NCBI GenBank assembly: GCA_965224085.1 | Contig: CBDCYI010000011.1 | Coordinates: 224,001 to 288,000 of the forward strand | Length of the DNA stretch: 64,000 bases | Direction of reading: 5' to 3' | Source: Candidatus Marinacidobacterales bacterium | Lineage (GTDB): Bacteria > Acidobacteriota > Vicinamibacteria > Marinacidobacterales > SMYC01 | Part shown: piece after piece, positions 49,282 to 52,015 of the stretch | Layout: the number at the start of each line of letters is the position of its first letter | Numbering within the stretch: the first letter of the stretch is position 1 | Made by a program: the position numbers and the translations under genes | Notes under the pieces: generated by a model | What the model saw: the letters and a program-made list of their open reading frames with translations, nothing else | The model's database searches: none | What the model was told of the DNA's origin: nothing

Positions 49282-50829
49282 TCAAAGCGAGCCGGAGTAG
49301 TTCTTCTTCAGTAAGTTGCGTTTCACTTTGCCGCTCCCGGTTTTTGGCAGTTCATCCACGAAGAAGACATAGCGGACGCGCTTGAAGCGCGCCGTGCGCT
49401 CCCCGGCAAAGTCGAGAAGCTCGCTCTCGGTGACGCTTCCGCCCACTCGGCGGACGACGGCGGCAGCGGGAAGCTCGCCCCATTGGTCGTCAGGGACCGC
49501 GAAAACCGCGCACTCGGAAACGTCGGGATGTTCGGAGAGCATGCCTTCGAGCTCGGCGGGATAGACGTTGATCCCTCCCGACAGAATACGCTCTTTCGTG
49601 CGACCGACGAGTGTCAGCATGCCTTCGTCATCTGCAAGAGCGAGGTCGCCCGTAAAGCCCCAACCGTCATCGGATTTGAAGTAAGCCCGAGTCTCCTCGG
49701 GCGCGTCGAGATAACCCTCCATCAACACGGGCCCTCGAACAGCGAGCTCGCCCACCTCACCCGGCAACGCGACGTCGCCTTTTTCCGTGAACACGCAATG
49801 CTCGATGCGAGGTCCGGGTTTTCCCACTGCCTGCGGATTCTTCCGGCGCTCCTCGGGATTTTGGCAGAGAAGATGTCCCGTTTCCGTCGAGCCGAGCGCC
49901 TGTACGAACGTCACGTTGGGGAGCGCGGCTTCCGCGCGCTCGAGAAGTTCCTGCGACGCGGGTGCGCCTCCGTAAACGACTTTCCGAAGCCCGTCGAGCC
50001 CGTCGAGCCCGTCGAGCCCGTCGAGCCCGTAGAGATTGAGCCCTTCCAGGAGCATGGCGATTTGAGACGGCACCATGAATGCTCCTGTAATGCCCTTTGC
50101 CGCGACTTGCGCGATCAGCTCCTTTGGGCTCCAACCTCGCAAGAAGATGCACGTGGCGCCCGCGAGAAGTGCTGGTTGGAACCACGTGAAGATGCCCGCC
50201 GCATGGCACAGCGGTGTGGTCACAGCGAGGATGTCCTCTGGGTGAAGCGGGATGTCTTCGACGGCCGCGACGGCGGAGAGGATGCGCGACCGGTGGCTTA
50301 ACACGACGCCTTTAGGGTGACCCGTCGTGCCGCTCGTATATTGGATACAGAACGGATCCTCGGGCCGGATGGTCCGCGCAACGGGGTTATCCGGCTGTCC
50401 TCGAAAGAACGCGTCGAAGTCGGAAGCGTCGATCAGATGCGGTGCCACCCCGAGCTCGTCGAACGTCGCCTCAGCCGTCGGCTTCGTCTTGGTATCGACG
50501 ATCCAAGCTTCGGCCCCGGTTTGGCGGCACACATAAGCGAGCTCGGAAAGGGTGTAGCGGGGGGACACGTGGACCGACACACAGCCCGAGCGGGCGGCGC
50601 CGTAGAAGCCGACGGCGTAGGCGGGCGAGTTGGACAGCATGAAGCCGATCTTCGCTCCCGGTGCGAGGCGCTCGGCGAGCGCGTGGGCGCATTGCTGCGT
50701 CATGCGGTCGAGCTCCGCGTAGCTCACACTCTCGTCGTCGAACACGATCGAGGCGCGTTCGGGGCTGCGCTCGGCCGAGCGGCGGATGATGTCGCCCGTG
50801 ACTCCGGTGGCTGCTGAATCGGCGAGCAT
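49282..50829 (-). CDS. Class I adenylate-forming enzyme (acyl-CoA synthetase)
   Basis: YTSGTTGHPKG, GSTET, TGDL, GRTKE, LPKTGSGKV. Confidence 0.92.
   Translation of the reverse strand: MLADSAATGVTGDIIRRSAERSPERASIVFDDESVSYAELDRMTQQCAHALAERLAPGAKIGFMLSNSPAYAVGFYGAARSGCVSVHVSPRYTLSELAYVCRQTGAEAWIVDTKTKPTAEATFDELGVAPHLIDASDFDAFFRGQPDNPVARTIRPEDPFCIQYTSGTTGHPKGVVLSHRSRILSAVAAVEDIPLHPEDILAVTTPLCHAAGIFTWFQPALLAGATCIFLRGWSPKELIAQVAAKGITGAFMVPSQIAMLLEGLNLYGLDGLDGLDGLDGLRKVVYGGAPASQELLERAEAALPNVTFVQALGSTETGHLLCQNPEERRKNPQAVGKPGPRIEHCVFTEKGDVALPGEVGELAVRGPVLMEGYLDAPEETRAYFKSDDGWGFTGDLALADDEGMLTLVGRTKERILSGGINVYPAELEGMLSEHPDVSECAVFAVPDDQWGELPAAAVVRRVGGSVTESELLDFAGERTARFKRVRYVFFVDELPKTGSGKVKRNLLKKNYSGSL
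49988..50030. repeat. In-frame 9-bp tandem repeat, about 5 copies
   Basis: (AGCCCGTCG)n encoding YGLDGLDGLDGLDGL. Confidence 0.9.
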
Positions 50830-50878
50830 TGTCGACGTGCATTCTATACTCGATTCGTTTGCGAGCCGCGACGCGACG

Positions 50879-50887
50879 TGCTAGCCT
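50879..50887 (+). promoter_or_regulatory. Extended -10 promoter for a leaderless transcript
   Basis: TGcTAGCCT, 6 nt before the ATG at 50894; no SD. Confidence 0.6.
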
Positions 50888-50893
50888 GATACC

Positions 50894-50974
50894 ATGAGTT
50901 CGACCCACGGTTTCATGCCGATCGCTTGTCCCTGTTGCTGTTGTCGCAGGGGAGCGCGCGGCCTCTCGGTCTGA
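50894..50974 (+). CDS. Poly-cysteine leader peptide (26 aa)
   Basis: MSSTHGFMPIACPCCCCRRGARGLSV*. Confidence 0.75.
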   Translation: MSSTHGFMPIACPCCCCRRGARGLSV

Positions 50975-51043
50975 GTGTTTCCCCCCTCTCGCTAGTCGCG
51001 ACGCTCCCCAATATCTGTCGAGGATAGAACTATTTGCAGGAGC
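50949..51043 (+). promoter_or_regulatory. Alternative-hairpin translational attenuator
   Basis: CGCTCCCC (51002-51009) can pair with GGGGAGCG (50949-50956) or with the SD GGAGC (51039-51043). Confidence 0.65.
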
Positions 51044-51052
51044 AGTACGGCT

Positions 51053-52015
51053 ATGTCACGGATCTACATCATTCACGAGAACGACGATTGGACCGCCCCC
51101 TTGCGGGCCGAGCTGAACCGACGCGCGCTTCCTTTCGAGGAGTGGTTTCTCGATCGGGGAACGATCGATCTCTCCTCGGCACCGCCCGACGGAGTTTTCT
51201 ACAACCGCATGAGCGCCTCGTCCCACACGCGCGGCCATCGTTTCGCGGCGGAGCACACGGCCGCGGTGCTCGCTTGGCTTGAGCGCCACGACAGAGTCGT
51301 GGTCAATGACTCCCGGGCGATGCAGCTCGAGATCAGCAAAGCGGCGCAATACGCTGCGCTCGCGAGCTATGGCATCCGAACCCCCAAGACCATTGCCGCG
51401 ATTGGGCGGGAGGAAATCCTCGAAGCGGCGTGCGGCTTCGATCGGCCGTTCATCACCAAACACAACCGAGGCGGTAAAGGCCTCGGCGTTCGGCTGTTCA
51501 GGAGCCTAGAAGCGCTCCGGAGCTACGTGGAGAGCGACGTGTTCGAAGAGCCGCTCGACGGGATCACGCTGATCCAGAAATACATCGAAGCGCCCGACGC
51601 CTCCATCACCCGTTGCGAGTTCGTGGGCGGGAAGTTTCTATACGCGGTCCGCGTCGACACGTCCCAAGGTTTCGAGCTCTGCCCCGCCGACGAATGCCAA
51701 ACGGGAGACGAGCTCTGCCCAGCGACCGTGAGCGAGCGACCTCGGTTCGAGATCCGGCGCGGATTCGACAACGACCTCCTCGGTCCCTTTGCACAGTTTC
51801 TCGCCGGCAACGGCATAAAGATCGCTGCCATCGAGTTCATCGAGGACCGAGACGGCAACGCCTATGCCTATGACGTCAACGTCAACACGAACTACAACGC
51901 CGATGCGGAGCGCCGCGCCGGCCTATCAGGCATGGGCGCGGTCGCGAGCTATCTCGGCGCCGAGCTTCAGAGGCGCTACCAGAACGTCCTCGAGGCGGTC
52001 TGCGCTTCGCCGTAA
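51053..52015 (+). CDS. RimK/glutathione synthase-like ATP-grasp ligase
   Basis: NRMSASSHTRGH, ITKHNRGGKGLGV, LIQKYI, GFELCPAD, YDVNVNTNYN. Confidence 0.88.
   Translation: MSRIYIIHENDDWTAPLRAELNRRALPFEEWFLDRGTIDLSSAPPDGVFYNRMSASSHTRGHRFAAEHTAAVLAWLERHDRVVVNDSRAMQLEISKAAQYAALASYGIRTPKTIAAIGREEILEAACGFDRPFITKHNRGGKGLGVRLFRSLEALRSYVESDVFEEPLDGITLIQKYIEAPDASITRCEFVGGKFLYAVRVDTSQGFELCPADECQTGDELCPATVSERPRFEIRRGFDNDLLGPFAQFLAGNGIKIAAIEFIEDRDGNAYAYDVNVNTNYNADAERRAGLSGMGAVASYLGAELQRRYQNVLEAVCASP

What the first reader, a model, noticed from the sequence alone, without database searches (positions are those of the whole stretch)
50879..52015. Leaderless poly-Cys leader peptide with an SD-sequestering switch: candidate cysteine-sensing attenuator
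Seen: extended -10 TGcTAGCCT, ATG 6 nt later with no SD, and sORF MSSTHGFMPIACPCCCCRRGARGLSV* (5 Cys in 6 codons). OFF hairpin: GCTCC-CC-AATA-TCTGTC-GAG-GATAGA-AC-TATT-TGCA-GGAGC (51003-51043) buries the SD of the RimK-like gene. ON pairing: GGGGAGCG (50949-56, just after the Cys run) with CGCTCCCC (51002-09). Known: leaderless polycysteine sORFs act as cysteine-responsive attenuators in mycobacteria. Inference: stalling on Cys codons leaves 50949-56 free to capture the anti-SD, switching on an ATP-grasp ligase under cysteine limitation. I know of no description of this outside Actinobacteria or for this ligase family, and it would tie this ligase to sulfur metabolism.
Basis: partly seen in the sequence, partly recalled or inferred. 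Interest (0 to 1): 0.85.

Follow-up and report, generated by a model that had tools for sequence, protein, structure and literature searches.

The report
Cysteine-sensing leader peptide before a ligase
A tiny upstream gene packed with cysteine codons, together with a conserved RNA helix, most likely lets the ribosome sense cysteine shortage and switch on an uncharacterised ATP-grasp ligase that other bacteria control with a cysteine T-box or a SAM riboswitch.

Summary

It is not chance:
- Cys-run sORFs lie upstream of 27 of 87 non-redundant ATP-grasp homologue loci. Controls gave 1 of 87 antisense, 0 of 75 downstream, and about 1% of shuffles.
- The 13-bp helix between the segment just after the Cys codons (50949-61) and the anti-SD segment (50996-51009) is 98.9% paired in 15 leaders, with 3 compensatory pairs. 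RNAalifold predicts it independently.
- A covariance model of it finds 10 strong hits in 151 genomes, all in front of this gene.
- Distant relatives pair Cys-run sORFs with intrinsic terminators and antiterminators.

Orthologues carry other sulfur sensors: a Cys-specifier T-box in Clostridia and a SAM riboswitch in 15 of 20 Bacillota loci tested. The ligase often sits beside an SfnG-like monooxygenase.

Weak points:
- SD sequestration as the output is only moderately supported.
- The leaderless start is inferred from geometry alone.
- Cys attenuators were already predicted outside Actinobacteria.

Verdict: a new variant of a known kind, and a functional lead for a large unstudied enzyme family.

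The parts
50859..50887 (+). Putative sigma-70-type promoter: -35 TTGCGA (50859-64), 17-nt spacer ending in TG (50879-80), -10 TAGCCT (50882-87)
   Evidence: Read. TTGC..(17 nt)..TA[GA]nnT is conserved across genera in the alignment. The consensus scan did not call it; the -10 matches only 3 of 6 positions of TATAAT. No TSS data.
50894..50974 (+). Leader sORF of 26 codons plus stop, MSSTHGFMPIACPCCCCRRGARGLSV. The start lies 6 nt after the -10 hexamer, which is leaderless geometry.
   Evidence: In-frame Cys-run sORFs are present in relatives. The 6-nt spacing holds in 13 of 15 leaders.
50927..50944 (+). Regulatory Cys codons: C12 (50927-29), Pro13, then C14-C17 (50933-44)
   Evidence: The codons vary TGT/TGC while the residue is kept.
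50918..50935 (+). Segment S0: a C-rich stretch upstream of and overlapping the first Cys codons. It can pair with S1, in the manner of the classical '1:2' hairpin.
   Evidence: hairpin 50918-50962, -21.9 kcal/mol. S0:S1 duplex of -14.6 to -17.9 kcal/mol in all 8 lineages. There is no covariation support (79% paired, 1 compensatory pair, not above shuffles).
50949..50961 (+). Segment S1 (anti-anti-SD), GGGGAGCGCGCGG, inside the sORF and starting 5 nt after the last Cys codon
   Evidence: 13-bp helix with S2, 98.9% of cells paired, 3 pairs with changes on both sides. In L106 the same nucleotides are read in another frame.
50996..51009 (+). Segment S2 (anti-SD), TCGCG-A-CGCTCCCC. It pairs either with S1 or with the SD.
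   Evidence: for S1:S2. for S2:SD.
51003..51043 (+). OFF hairpin: GCTCC (51003-07) with SD GGAGC (51039-43), plus an inner hairpin TCTGTC/GATAGA (51014-19 with 51023-28)
   Evidence: It forms in the model when a ribosome sits on the sORF stop codon. The inner stem changes from GATAGA to GACAGA in L003.
51053..52015 (+). Regulated gene: a 320-aa ATP-grasp ligase of a large uncharacterised family, with invariant C210 and C215 and nearly invariant C222
49282..50829 (-). Divergent neighbour: AMP-binding acyl-CoA ligase. It is not part of the element but bounds the 223-nt intergenic region.

Best explanation
This is a ribosome-mediated, cysteinyl-tRNA-sensing attenuator of the leader-peptide type.

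**Proposed mechanism.**
1. Transcription starts at or next to the A of ATG 50894 (inferred).
2. The 26-codon sORF is translated.
3. When Cys-tRNA(Cys) is scarce, the ribosome stalls on the first Cys codons (C12 to C15). It covers the upstream C-rich segment S0 and leaves S1 (50949-61) free.
4. S1 then pairs with S2 (50996-51009) in a 13-bp helix. This holds the CUCCCC anti-SD away from the SD (51039-43), so the ATP-grasp gene is translated.
5. When cysteine is plentiful, the ribosome runs through S1 to the stop codon (50972-74). S1 is melted or captured locally by S0, S2 pairs with the SD (hairpin 51003-43), and translation is off.

The C-rich, G-poor spacer may in addition expose a Rho loading site in the off state.

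**What is shown.** The sORF, the Cys run and the S1:S2 helix are conserved, and the helix covaries. The element occurs only in front of this gene. Related leaders use the same logic with intrinsic terminators. Orthologues are controlled by a Cys T-box and by SAM riboswitches.

**What is inferred.** The TSS, translation of the sORF, stalling, the polarity (on when starved) and the SD as the output.

**Likely role of the ligase.** It most likely acts in sulfur or cysteine scavenging together with an SfnG-like FMNH2-dependent monooxygenase. This genome lacks that monooxygenase as a close orthologue.
For: **Presence and conservation.**
- The sORF and both pairings are present.
- A Cys-run sORF lies upstream of 9 of 10 relatives' orthologues.
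- A survey of 87 non-redundant homologue loci gave 27 sense, against 1 of 87 antisense, 0 of 75 downstream and 1% of shuffles.
- In the 6.87-Mb own genome only 8 intergenic sORFs carry CCC. Only this one has four consecutive Cys in a leader-like position.

**S1:S2 helix.**
- 13 pairs, 98.9% of cells paired, against 40-60% when the partner is slid. Three pairs changed on both sides. 0 of 500 shuffles reach the covariation score.
- RNAalifold predicts the same 13 pairs unaided.
- Covariance model R1 gave 10 strong hits (E <= 1.5e-6) in 151 genomes of the class. All 10 lie directly upstream of an ATP-grasp orthologue, including two lineages not used to build it.

**Translation of the sORF.**
- The start codon lies 6 nt after the -10 hexamer in 13 of 15 leaders.
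- The N-terminal peptide varies in length and sequence but is always in frame with the Cys run.
- The S1 nucleotides are read in a different frame in L106, so the RNA rather than the peptide is conserved there.

**Folding of the window leader with a ribosome footprint.**
- A site on C14 or C15: S1:S2 forms and S2 does not hold the SD.
- A site on the stop codon: the S0:S1 hairpin and the S2:SD hairpin both form.

**S2:SD duplex.** It is better within lineages than between them: trace -93.0 against a permuted mean of -83.3, fraction at least as good 0.022.

**Terminator-type relatives.** There are 11 such loci. The segment just 3' of the Cys run pairs with the terminator's 5' arm. The predicted terminator probability falls on stalling in L030 (0.92 to 0.01-0.04), L057 (0.95 to about 0.3), L068 (0.88 to 0.34) and L036 (1.0 to 0.5-0.7).

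**Independent sensors on orthologues.**
- T-box with specifier UGC in 2 Clostridium loci. The codon position was calibrated on 10 of 10 T-boxes of the same genome.
- SAM riboswitch upstream of the LLM-ATP-grasp pair in 15 of 20 Bacillota loci.
Against: - No TSS, ribosome or expression data exist. The RNA-labelled runs hold only contigs of relatives.
- The promoter is not called by the consensus scan, and the whole leader folds no better than shuffles.
- Predicted SD accessibility changes with ribosome position mainly in the window's genus. In L001 it is 0.39-0.43 stalled against 0.21 free and 0.27 at the stop. L074 and L002 behave similarly, and L003 and L005 change only slightly. It does not change in L076, L077, L103, L009, L078, L106, L007 or L008.
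- In the model, a stall on the last two Cys codons (C16, C17) or on C12 gives the off-like fold.
- The free RNA at equilibrium forms S1:S2, so the off state must be kinetic or ribosome-driven.
- S0:S1 has no covariation support.
- In 6 of 11 terminator-type leaders the terminator probability did not change at equilibrium, and in a seventh (L037) only slightly.
- 60 of 87 homologue loci have no Cys leader.
- Three hits of the second survey were artefacts: out-of-frame reading of an upstream gene. Naive counts therefore overcall slightly.
Confidence: 0.72

Rival explanations
1. The sensor is the same (Cys-codon stalling), but the output in this lineage is Rho-dependent termination rather than, or more than, SD sequestration. 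After the ribosome leaves at the sORF stop, the untranslated C-rich, G-poor spacer loads Rho. Stalling lets S1:S2 fold over part of that spacer and blocks loading.
For: - The spacer between S1 and the SD has a C/G ratio of 1.2-2.1 in 15 of 15 leaders, against about 1.0 in the surrounding loci.
- There is no intrinsic terminator in the window.
- SD accessibility does not respond in the folding model for 8 of 15 leaders.
- Rho was proposed for actinobacterial Cys leaders that lack terminators (PMC1262725, passages read).
Against: - The anti-SD:SD complementarity is present and lineage-matched.
- C-richness is partly forced by the anti-SD and helix sequences themselves.
- Nothing was tested about Rho.
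Confidence: 0.2
2. The polarity is reversed. A ribosome stalled at the last Cys codons covers the 5' part of S1, frees S2 to bind the SD and switches the ligase off under cysteine shortage.
For: In the footprint model, stalls with the A site on C16 or C17 give the S2:SD fold. The last Cys codon is always 5 nt from S1.
Against: - A starved ribosome stalls at the first hungry codons, and these leave S1 free.
- Terminator-type relatives have antiterminators that form on stalling.
- The orthologues' Cys T-box and SAM riboswitch both switch on under shortage, according to established knowledge of those classes.
Confidence: 0.05
3. The sORF encodes a functional Cys-rich peptide. It could be a ribosomal peptide precursor or acceptor substrate modified by the adjacent ATP-grasp ligase, or a metal-binding peptide, rather than a sensor.
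For: A short peptide gene directly upstream of an ATP-grasp gene is the usual graspetide layout (recalled knowledge). There is a faint NCBIfam hit to an ATP-grasp peptide maturase (TIGR04187, E 0.0022).
Against: - That hit scores 17.3 bits against a cut-off of 350.
- Nothing but the Cys run is conserved between lineages.
- The conserved RGARG stretch is the S1 helix strand, and it is read in another frame in L106.
- The window peptide has no Asp or Glu for ATP-grasp cross-links.
- 60 of 87 family members have no such sORF.
- Terminator and antiterminator architecture is present in relatives.
Confidence: 0.04
4. The S1:S2 helix is a constitutive structural, protein-binding or ligand-binding RNA element, and the Cys codons are incidental.
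For: S1:S2 is the thermodynamically dominant fold of the free RNA.
Against: - The 35-60-nt loop enclosed by the helix is not conserved.
- Cys runs recur in unrelated leaders that lack this helix.
- The frame to the start codon is kept.
Confidence: 0.02

Closest known systems
Mycobacterial polycysteine leaderless sORF attenuators (Canestrari et al., bioRxiv 10.1101/834739; abstract, sections 9 and 14 and passages read)
   Same: - A leaderless-type short ORF with consecutive Cys codons.
- Translational control through access to the SD of the next gene.
- Switched on when cysteine is limiting.
   Different: - In mycobacteria the Cys tract itself pairs with the SD region and the stalled ribosome blocks that duplex, a two-segment design. 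Here the conserved helix joins a segment 3' of the Cys run to a separate anti-SD, a three- or four-segment design like trp.
- In mycobacteria the Cys tract lies at the 3' end of the sORF and several loci form a 'ribulon'. Here 9 codons follow the run, and only one locus was found in the genome.
- The phylum and the regulated gene are different.
Classical leader-peptide transcription attenuators (trp, his, leu, thr; established knowledge)
   Same: - Regulatory codons in a leader ORF.
- Mutually exclusive 1:2, 2:3 and 3:4 pairings chosen by ribosome position.
- The relatives L010, L030, L036/37, L050, L057, L058, L062, L064, L066 and L068 have a true terminator as segment 3:4.
   Different: - In the window, segment 4 is the SD and not a terminator arm.
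- The amino acid sensed is cysteine.
- The regulated gene is not a known biosynthetic gene for that amino acid.
uORFC-8-2 motif upstream of cysS in Rhodobacterales (Brewer et al. 2021, PMC8632094; passages read)
   Same: A predicted ribosome-mediated attenuator with tandem Cys codons, outside Actinobacteria.
   Different: It has two Cys codons, an intrinsic terminator and a cysS target, and it occurs in alpha-proteobacteria. There is no sequence or structural relation to this leader (no Rfam hit).
Cys leader peptides upstream of cys/cbs operons in Mycobacterium, Propionibacterium and Bifidobacterium (Seliverstov et al. 2005, PMC1262725; passages read)
   Same: Runs of Cys codons near the end of a leader ORF, no obvious terminator, and Rho considered as a possible output.
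   Different: These are in Actinobacteria and control cysteine biosynthesis genes. No conserved alternative helices were reported.
Cys-specifier T-box and SAM (S-box) riboswitch, found here on orthologues
   Same: They report the same physiological signals, uncharged tRNA(Cys) and a low sulfur amino-acid supply. They control the orthologous ATP-grasp gene.
   Different: These are protein-free RNA sensors that bind tRNA or SAM directly. The window's element uses the translating ribosome as the sensor.

Membership tests
Ribosome-mediated amino-acid attenuator (leader-peptide type) | Short ORF with a usable start codon in the 5' leader of the regulated gene | tested here: met
   sORF at 50894-50974. 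The start lies 6 nt after the -10 hexamer in 13 of 15 leaders and is always in frame with the Cys run. Translation itself was not shown.
Ribosome-mediated amino-acid attenuator (leader-peptide type) | Conserved cluster of codons for the sensed amino acid | tested here: met
   5 Cys in 6 codons. Cys-run sORFs occur in 27 of 87 homologue loci, against 1 of 87 antisense, 0 of 75 downstream and 1% of shuffles.
Ribosome-mediated amino-acid attenuator (leader-peptide type) | Mutually exclusive RNA pairings, one strand of which lies in or next to the sORF | tested here: met
   S1:S2 covaries. S2 can alternatively pair with the SD. S0:S1 is stable but has no covariation support.
Ribosome-mediated amino-acid attenuator (leader-peptide type) | Output element: intrinsic terminator | tested here: not met
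   There is none in window 50600-51300. One is present in 11 related leaders.
Ribosome-mediated amino-acid attenuator (leader-peptide type) | Output element: SD sequestration that depends on ribosome position | tested here: inconclusive
   The folding model supports it in the window's genus but not in 8 of 15 leaders. Lineage-matched complementarity gives a fraction of 0.022.
Ribosome-mediated amino-acid attenuator (leader-peptide type) | Response of the downstream gene to supply of the amino acid | not testable with these tools
   This needs a reporter or expression data. The RNA runs held only relatives' contigs.
Mycobacterial polycysteine leaderless sORF translational attenuator | Transcript starts at the sORF start codon | not testable with these tools
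   The geometry is consistent. No TSS data.
Mycobacterial polycysteine leaderless sORF translational attenuator | The Cys tract itself base-pairs with the SD region of the next gene | tested here: inconclusive
   In the free-RNA fold of the window, S0 and the Cys-codon region pair with the SD region as an outer stem. S0:SD shows no lineage matching (fraction 0.88). The conserved helix is S1:S2.
Mycobacterial polycysteine leaderless sORF translational attenuator | Several cysteine-related loci in one genome carry such sORFs (a 'ribulon') | tested here: not met
   The own-genome scan found only this locus convincing among 8 CCC sORFs.
Graspetide-type RiPP locus (precursor peptide plus ATP-grasp maturase) | The ATP-grasp matches peptide-maturase models, and the precursor has a conserved leader and core with Ser/Thr/Lys and Asp/Glu | tested here: not met
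   TIGR04187 scores 17.3 bits against a cut-off of 350. No peptide conservation exists beyond Cys and the helix strand. The window peptide has no Asp or Glu.
RimK family alpha-L-glutamate ligase | Scores above the family cut-offs over the full ATP-grasp domain | tested here: not met
   TIGR00768 scores 60.4 bits against a cut-off of 143.4. Pfam RimK scores 23.6 against 21 over residues 96-202 only. It is a member of the ATP-grasp superfamily but not demonstrably RimK.

The most novel reading that the evidence does not exclude
The ATP-grasp ligase and its recurrent partner are a previously unrecognised two-enzyme sulfur-scavenging module found across phyla. The partner is a monooxygenase of the 3RAO type, related to SfnG, MsuD and SsuD.

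In this reading, the ligase conjugates or activates a sulfur-containing carboxylate or amino acid so that the monooxygenase can cleave its C-S bond. This yields assimilable sulfur under cysteine shortage.

Evolution has attached at least three unrelated RNA sensors to the module:
- Cys-codon leader peptides, gained several times and with either terminator or SD outputs;
- a Cys T-box;
- a SAM riboswitch.

That would make it a natural example of convergent riboregulation of one pathway.
Probability: 0.35. Interest if true: 0.8.

Novelty: new variant of a known kind. Interest (0 to 1): 0.66.

Why it matters
1. **Wider reach of the mechanism.** It extends ribosome-based cysteine sensing to Acidobacteriota. 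By the same criteria it also reaches Balneola and Longibacter-like Rhodothermota, and MAGs labelled Nitrospira and Deltaproteobacteria. The architecture is a trp-like competition of segments ending in an SD, which differs from the mycobacterial one.

2. **One sensor, two outputs.** The same sensor, a Cys-codon run, is coupled to SD sequestration in some lineages and to an intrinsic terminator in others, in front of homologous genes. This gives a ready comparative system for studying how attenuators evolve.

3. **A functional lead for an unstudied family.** Three independent sulfur-related RNA sensors converge on one ATP-grasp family. That family has at least 7,995 clusters at E <= 1e-20 and carries only generic names. 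It has a conserved partner monooxygenase whose B. cereus homologue has a solved structure (3RAO). The two papers read cite that structure only as a putative luciferase-like monooxygenase. Together these give a concrete, testable lead to a new sulfur or cysteine salvage activity.

Tried and rejected
**Single-sequence tests on the window.**
- Thermodynamic significance of the leader: not better than shuffles.
- Rfam: no family.
- Consensus promoter and terminator scan: nothing found.

**Expression data.** RNA-labelled public runs (X12, X20, X21, X22) are kept only as contigs. They cover relatives at 88-99% likeness and give no information on start, strand or level. The lack of cover over 50804-50956 is not evidence.

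**Folding models.**
- Equilibrium folding with ribosome footprints as a test of the SD switch outside the window's genus showed no effect.
- As a test of 11 terminator-type leaders, it showed a clear effect in 4, a slight one in L037 and none in 6.
- Pairing of the terminator 5' arm in truncated transcripts did not separate stalled from terminating ribosomes cleanly.
- S0:S1 covariation was not supported.
- S0:SD lineage matching was not supported.

**Search for further Cys leaders in the own genome.** None was convincing.

**Alignment A3.** The model-fitted alignment contained 4 reverse-strand matches, so it was not used for pair counts.

**False positives.** The Cys 'leaders' in Bacillota L177, L181, L183 and L154 were rejected. 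They are the 3' end of an upstream monooxygenase gene read out of frame. L166 (TTG start) was left as doubtful. L048, L059 and L065 are kept in the counts but are uncertain, because their frames are open far upstream or no terminator was found.

**Structure of the ligase.** There is no close solved relative by sequence (best hit Ddl at E 0.007). No predicted structure was obtained, so no fold comparison was made. The protein atlas and the store of earlier findings gave no answer.

**Literature.** Searches found nothing on Cys attenuators in Acidobacteria or Bacteroidota, or on this ligase. The library lacks most subscription journals and supplements were closed. Table S3 and the supplementary figures of the mycobacterial preprint may list loci I could not see.
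Full report
**1. Observation**

- Promoter: -35 TTGCGA (50859-64), a 17-nt spacer ending in TG, and -10 TAGCCT (50882-87).
- Start: six nucleotides later, ATG at 50894, with no Shine-Dalgarno sequence.
- sORF: 26 codons, MSSTHGFMPIACPCCCCRRGARGLSV, with five Cys in six codons (50927-44).
- Downstream gene: 51053-52015, a 320-aa protein with a weak Pfam RimK ATP-grasp match (23.6 bits against a cut-off of 21). Its NCBIfam hits to RimK and LysX fall below the cut-offs.
- Upstream neighbour: a divergent AMP-binding acyl-CoA ligase.
- 'ON' pairing: it exists and is longer than described, 13 bp between 50949-61 and 50996-51009 with A51001 bulged.
- 'OFF' hairpin: 51003-43 folds at -11.1 kcal/mol alone and at -17.6 in context.

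Taken alone, the sequence is not remarkable. The leader folds no better than shuffles (z -0.70). The consensus scan calls neither promoter nor terminator. No Rfam family matches.

**2. Conservation of the sORF**

Relatives in the same family:
- Orthologues were fetched from 41 related genomes, of which 14 had a match.
- Of the ten best loci, nine have an in-frame Cys-run sORF upstream.
- The tenth (G002) also has the intact leader. A 1,920-bp ISL3 transposase insertion flanked by an 8-bp direct repeat separates it from the gene.

Further sets:

| Source | Loci or genomes | Result |
|---|---|---|
| Named genomes | 27 loci | Cys-run sORF in 6 |
| 401 genomes of the phylum | 40 with a match, 29 new loci | 12 of the 29 with 3 Cys within 5 residues |
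| Metagenome contigs | 38 loci | 10 with a Cys-run sORF |

The six hits among the named genomes comprise repeats of the relatives' records plus Balneola and two Longibacter-like Bacteroidota/Rhodothermota records.

Pooled and de-replicated survey:

| Region scanned | Loci with a Cys-run sORF |
|---|---|
| Sense strand, within 300 nt upstream | 27 of 87 |
| Antisense strand of the same regions | 1 of 87 |
| 300 nt downstream of the gene | 0 of 75 |
| Dinucleotide shuffles | 1% of regions |

- By composition, 23 of 44 GC-rich upstream regions carried one, against 4 of 43 AT-rich regions.
- One of the 27 (L068) comes from an unpublished genome (G192). Without it the count is 26 of 86.

A second scan with a protein alignment kept 80 loci, of which 79 were scanned. 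It gave 7 raw hits:
- one repeat of a known record;
- two new plausible leaders, in MAGs labelled Nitrospira and Deltaproteobacteria;
- one doubtful hit;
- three artefacts, in which the 3' end of an upstream gene is read out of frame.

In the window's own 6.87-Mb genome, only 8 intergenic sORFs contain CCC. Only this one has four consecutive Cys in front of a gene. So there is no sign of a multi-locus regulon.

**3. Evidence that the sORF is read**

- In 13 of 15 aligned leaders from about eight lineages, the -10 hexamer TA[GA]nnT is followed by exactly 6 nt and then ATG or GTG.
- By eye, the same holds for three more leaders: L122, L123 and L132.
- Between that start and the Cys run, the peptide differs completely in length and sequence (MSSTHGFMPIA, MIQRTYGAGPFAFP, MIFRTYRADFFVDFEPFAFP, and so on). 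The frame is always kept and no stop intervenes.
- The Cys codons vary between TGT and TGC.
- The only other conserved 'peptide' stretch, RGARG, is the S1 strand of the helix. In L106 the same nucleotides are read in another frame.

This argues for translation of the Cys codons and against a conserved peptide product.

**4. RNA structure**

The S1:S2 helix:
- On an alignment of 15 leaders (A1), the 13-bp S1:S2 helix is paired in 98.9% of cells.
- When the partner is slid by 1-3 columns, only 40-60% of cells pair.
- Three pairs changed on both sides: C-G to U-A, G-C to A-U and A-U to G-C.
- None of 500 shuffles reaches the covariation score.
- RNAalifold predicts exactly these 13 pairs without guidance.

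The covariance model built from it was searched in 151 genomes of the class:
- It gave 10 strong hits, all directly upstream of an ATP-grasp orthologue.
- Two of these are in lineages not used to build it (61% and 68% protein identity).
- The 6 weak hits (E 0.0015-0.009) lie in unrelated coding DNA.

Other pairings:
- Anti-SD (S2) with the SD: 5-7 bp in every lineage but one. It is better matched within lineages than between them, for example GCUCC/GGAGC, GUUCC/GGAAC, GUCCCC/GGGGAC and UUCCCC/GGGGAA. The trace is -93.0 against a permuted mean of -83.3, and the fraction at least as good is 0.022.
- Segment S0, upstream of the Cys codons, with S1: -14.6 to -17.9 kcal/mol in all eight lineages, but without covariation support.

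**5. Mechanism**

Modelling a ribosome footprint on the window's leader gave the following:

| Ribosome position | Predicted fold |
|---|---|
| A site on C14 or C15 | S1:S2 forms; S2 does not hold the SD |
| A site on the stop codon | S0:S1 forms, and S2:SD forms |
| A site on C12, C16 or C17 | S2:SD forms (off-like) |
| No ribosome (free RNA) | S1:S2 forms; S0 and the Cys region pair with the SD region |

This is the classical four-segment logic with the SD as segment 4. The on state requires a ribosome parked on the early Cys codons.

The same modelling shows a clear effect in L001, L002 and L074 and a slight one in L003 and L005, all in the window's genus. It shows none in eight more distant leaders. 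SD sequestration as the output is therefore only moderately supported.

The spacer between S1 and the SD is C-rich and G-poor in 15 of 15 leaders (C/G 1.2-2.1). A Rho-dependent component is therefore a serious alternative or addition.

Eleven other leaders carry an intrinsic terminator. They come from the distant acidobacterial clade, Balneola and Longibacter-like records.
- In these, the segment just 3' of the Cys run can pair with the terminator's 5' arm.
- At equilibrium, the terminator probability drops on stalling in four of the eleven, slightly in one and not in six.
- This mixed result is expected for kinetically controlled attenuators, but it is not proof.

**6. Independent evidence for the signal**

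In Clostridium bovifaecis and an uncultured Clostridium, the orthologue (61-62% identity) is the second gene of an operon. The layout is T-box, then a sodium:dicarboxylate-family symporter, then the ATP-grasp gene.
- The specifier loop reads GAA-G-UGC-C and the antiterminator bulge reads UGGA.
- I calibrated the codon position on the same genome. In 10 of 10 T-boxes of this format, the codon one base after GAA fits the downstream gene: UAC with TyrRS, ACC with ThrRS, AGA with ArgRS, AUC with BrnQ and KARI, and so on.
- Reading directly after GAA would misfit Tyr, Thr and Arg.
- The specifier is therefore UGC (Cys). This T-box senses the same quantity, tRNA(Cys) charging, that a Cys-codon leader would sense.

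In Bacillota:
- 21 of 78 loci have an SfnG-like monooxygenase directly upstream of the ligase.
- Of 20 such loci scanned, 15 carry a SAM riboswitch on the same strand just upstream of that gene pair.

Both sensor classes switch genes on under shortage, according to established knowledge. This supports the polarity proposed here.

**7. The regulated enzyme**

- The family is very large: at least 7,995 clusters at E <= 1e-20, carrying only generic names.
- It has no close solved relative.
- It has invariant C210 and C215 and nearly invariant C222.

Its conserved partner is a luciferase-like monooxygenase:
- It lies directly downstream in 19 of 74 loci, or 18 of 73 without L068.
- It lies directly upstream in 21 of 78 Bacillota loci.
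- It scores best against SfnG and SsuD models but below their cut-offs.
- Its closest solved relative is 3RAO of B. cereus, cited only as a 'putative luciferase-like monooxygenase' in the two papers whose passages I read.

Other neighbours are an FMN reductase, siroheme synthase CysG, a sulfatase and a Cys/Met PLP enzyme.

The window's genome has no close orthologue of the monooxygenase; the best match is 31% identical.

The substrate is unknown. A role in sulfur or cysteine scavenging is inferred from regulation and context only.

**8. Evolution**

A quick maximum-likelihood tree of 73 homologues was built with SH-aLRT support only, because the careful search did not finish.
- It shows two deep clades.
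- Cys leaders occur in both clades and in several places.
- At least 5 label changes are needed.

The leaders of different groups share nothing but the Cys codons. This fits repeated gain or rapid turnover.

**9. Comparison with what is known**

- Cys leader peptides were predicted in Actinobacteria in 2005 (PMC1262725; passages read).
- They were shown to act as translational attenuators in mycobacteria (bioRxiv 10.1101/834739; abstract, sections 9 and 14 and passages read).
- A tandem-Cys uORF with a terminator was predicted upstream of cysS in Rhodobacterales (PMC8632094; passages read).

The kind of element is therefore known, and not only in Actinobacteria.

What I did not find in print:
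- such elements in Acidobacteriota, Rhodothermota or Balneolota;
- the trp-like S1:S2/S2:SD architecture;
- this ligase family as a target;
- the convergence of three RNA sensors on it.

The library is incomplete and supplements were closed.

**10. Verdict**

This is a real, conserved regulatory element. It is best explained as a cysteinyl-tRNA-sensing leader-peptide attenuator that turns on an ATP-grasp ligase under cysteine shortage.
- Confidence in the sensor and its polarity is high.
- Confidence in the SD as the main output is moderate.
- The leaderless start is only inferred.

It is a new variant of a known kind. It also yields a useful functional lead for an unstudied enzyme pair.

Noticed in passing
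L017:1055-2982 (= G002, same genus as the window); leader at L116:1501-1596: A 1,920-bp insertion encodes an ISL3-family transposase in two open frames (Pfam HTH_Tnp_ISL3, Zn_ribbon_ISL3 and DDE_Tnp_ISL3). It is flanked by the 8-bp direct repeat GAACTATT. It sits between the leader's inner hairpin and the SD of the ATP-grasp gene, so it uncouples an intact Cys leader from its gene.
   Followed up: yes
L047 and L049 (about -60 to -40 from the ATP-grasp start); L053, L055 and L056 (about -110 to -60): Acidobacterial ATP-grasp/monooxygenase operons that lack a Cys leader carry conserved promoter-proximal palindromes instead: TCGTTATAACGA, and GAATTCTGACGSATTCACTCRGAATT. These look like operators of unknown transcription factors.
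   Followed up: no
window 51680-51718 (residues 210-222 of the ATP-grasp protein): The motif ELCPADxCQxGDxxCP has C210 and C215 invariant and C222 nearly invariant across 33 homologues of both deep clades. It may be a metal or redox site in an enzyme induced by cysteine shortage.
   Followed up: partly
G000 C4:1208505-1208606, C5:323645-323743, C5:1299378-1299533, C5:1826095-1826304, C11:906662-906859: A repeated element shows up as sORFs sharing the string NERFRSL(P/S)DDLRP(R/H)GRCHCCQ at five or more places in the window's genome. A second repeated pair lies at C5:1504670 and C5:1902323. They are probably dispersed repeats or mobile-element ends.
   Followed up: no
L136 and L137 (Pusillimonas-labelled and Burkholderiaceae-labelled MAGs), about -250 from the ATP-grasp start: Two betaproteobacterial loci share an upstream sORF beginning MAK..ACCTTP.TTSTTS, with two Cys followed by a Thr- and Ser-rich tail. 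It may be another leader type. It was not seen in the other Burkholderiales loci within 300 nt.
   Followed up: no
L147:502-608 (-) and L150:179-285 (-): In two Oceanobacillus loci, a second SAM riboswitch on the opposite strand faces away from the monooxygenase-ligase operon. A Cys/Met-metabolism PLP enzyme lies downstream of the ligase. Together they form a small S-box-controlled sulfur island.
   Followed up: partly
L031-L034 (Desemzia, Aerococcus) and L133, L135 (Clostridium): In these Bacillota the ligase directly follows a sodium:dicarboxylate-family symporter instead of the monooxygenase. Only the Clostridium loci showed a T-box. No riboswitch or T-box reached the Rfam cut-offs in the three of the Desemzia/Aerococcus loci that were scanned (L031, L032, L034).
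   Followed up: partly
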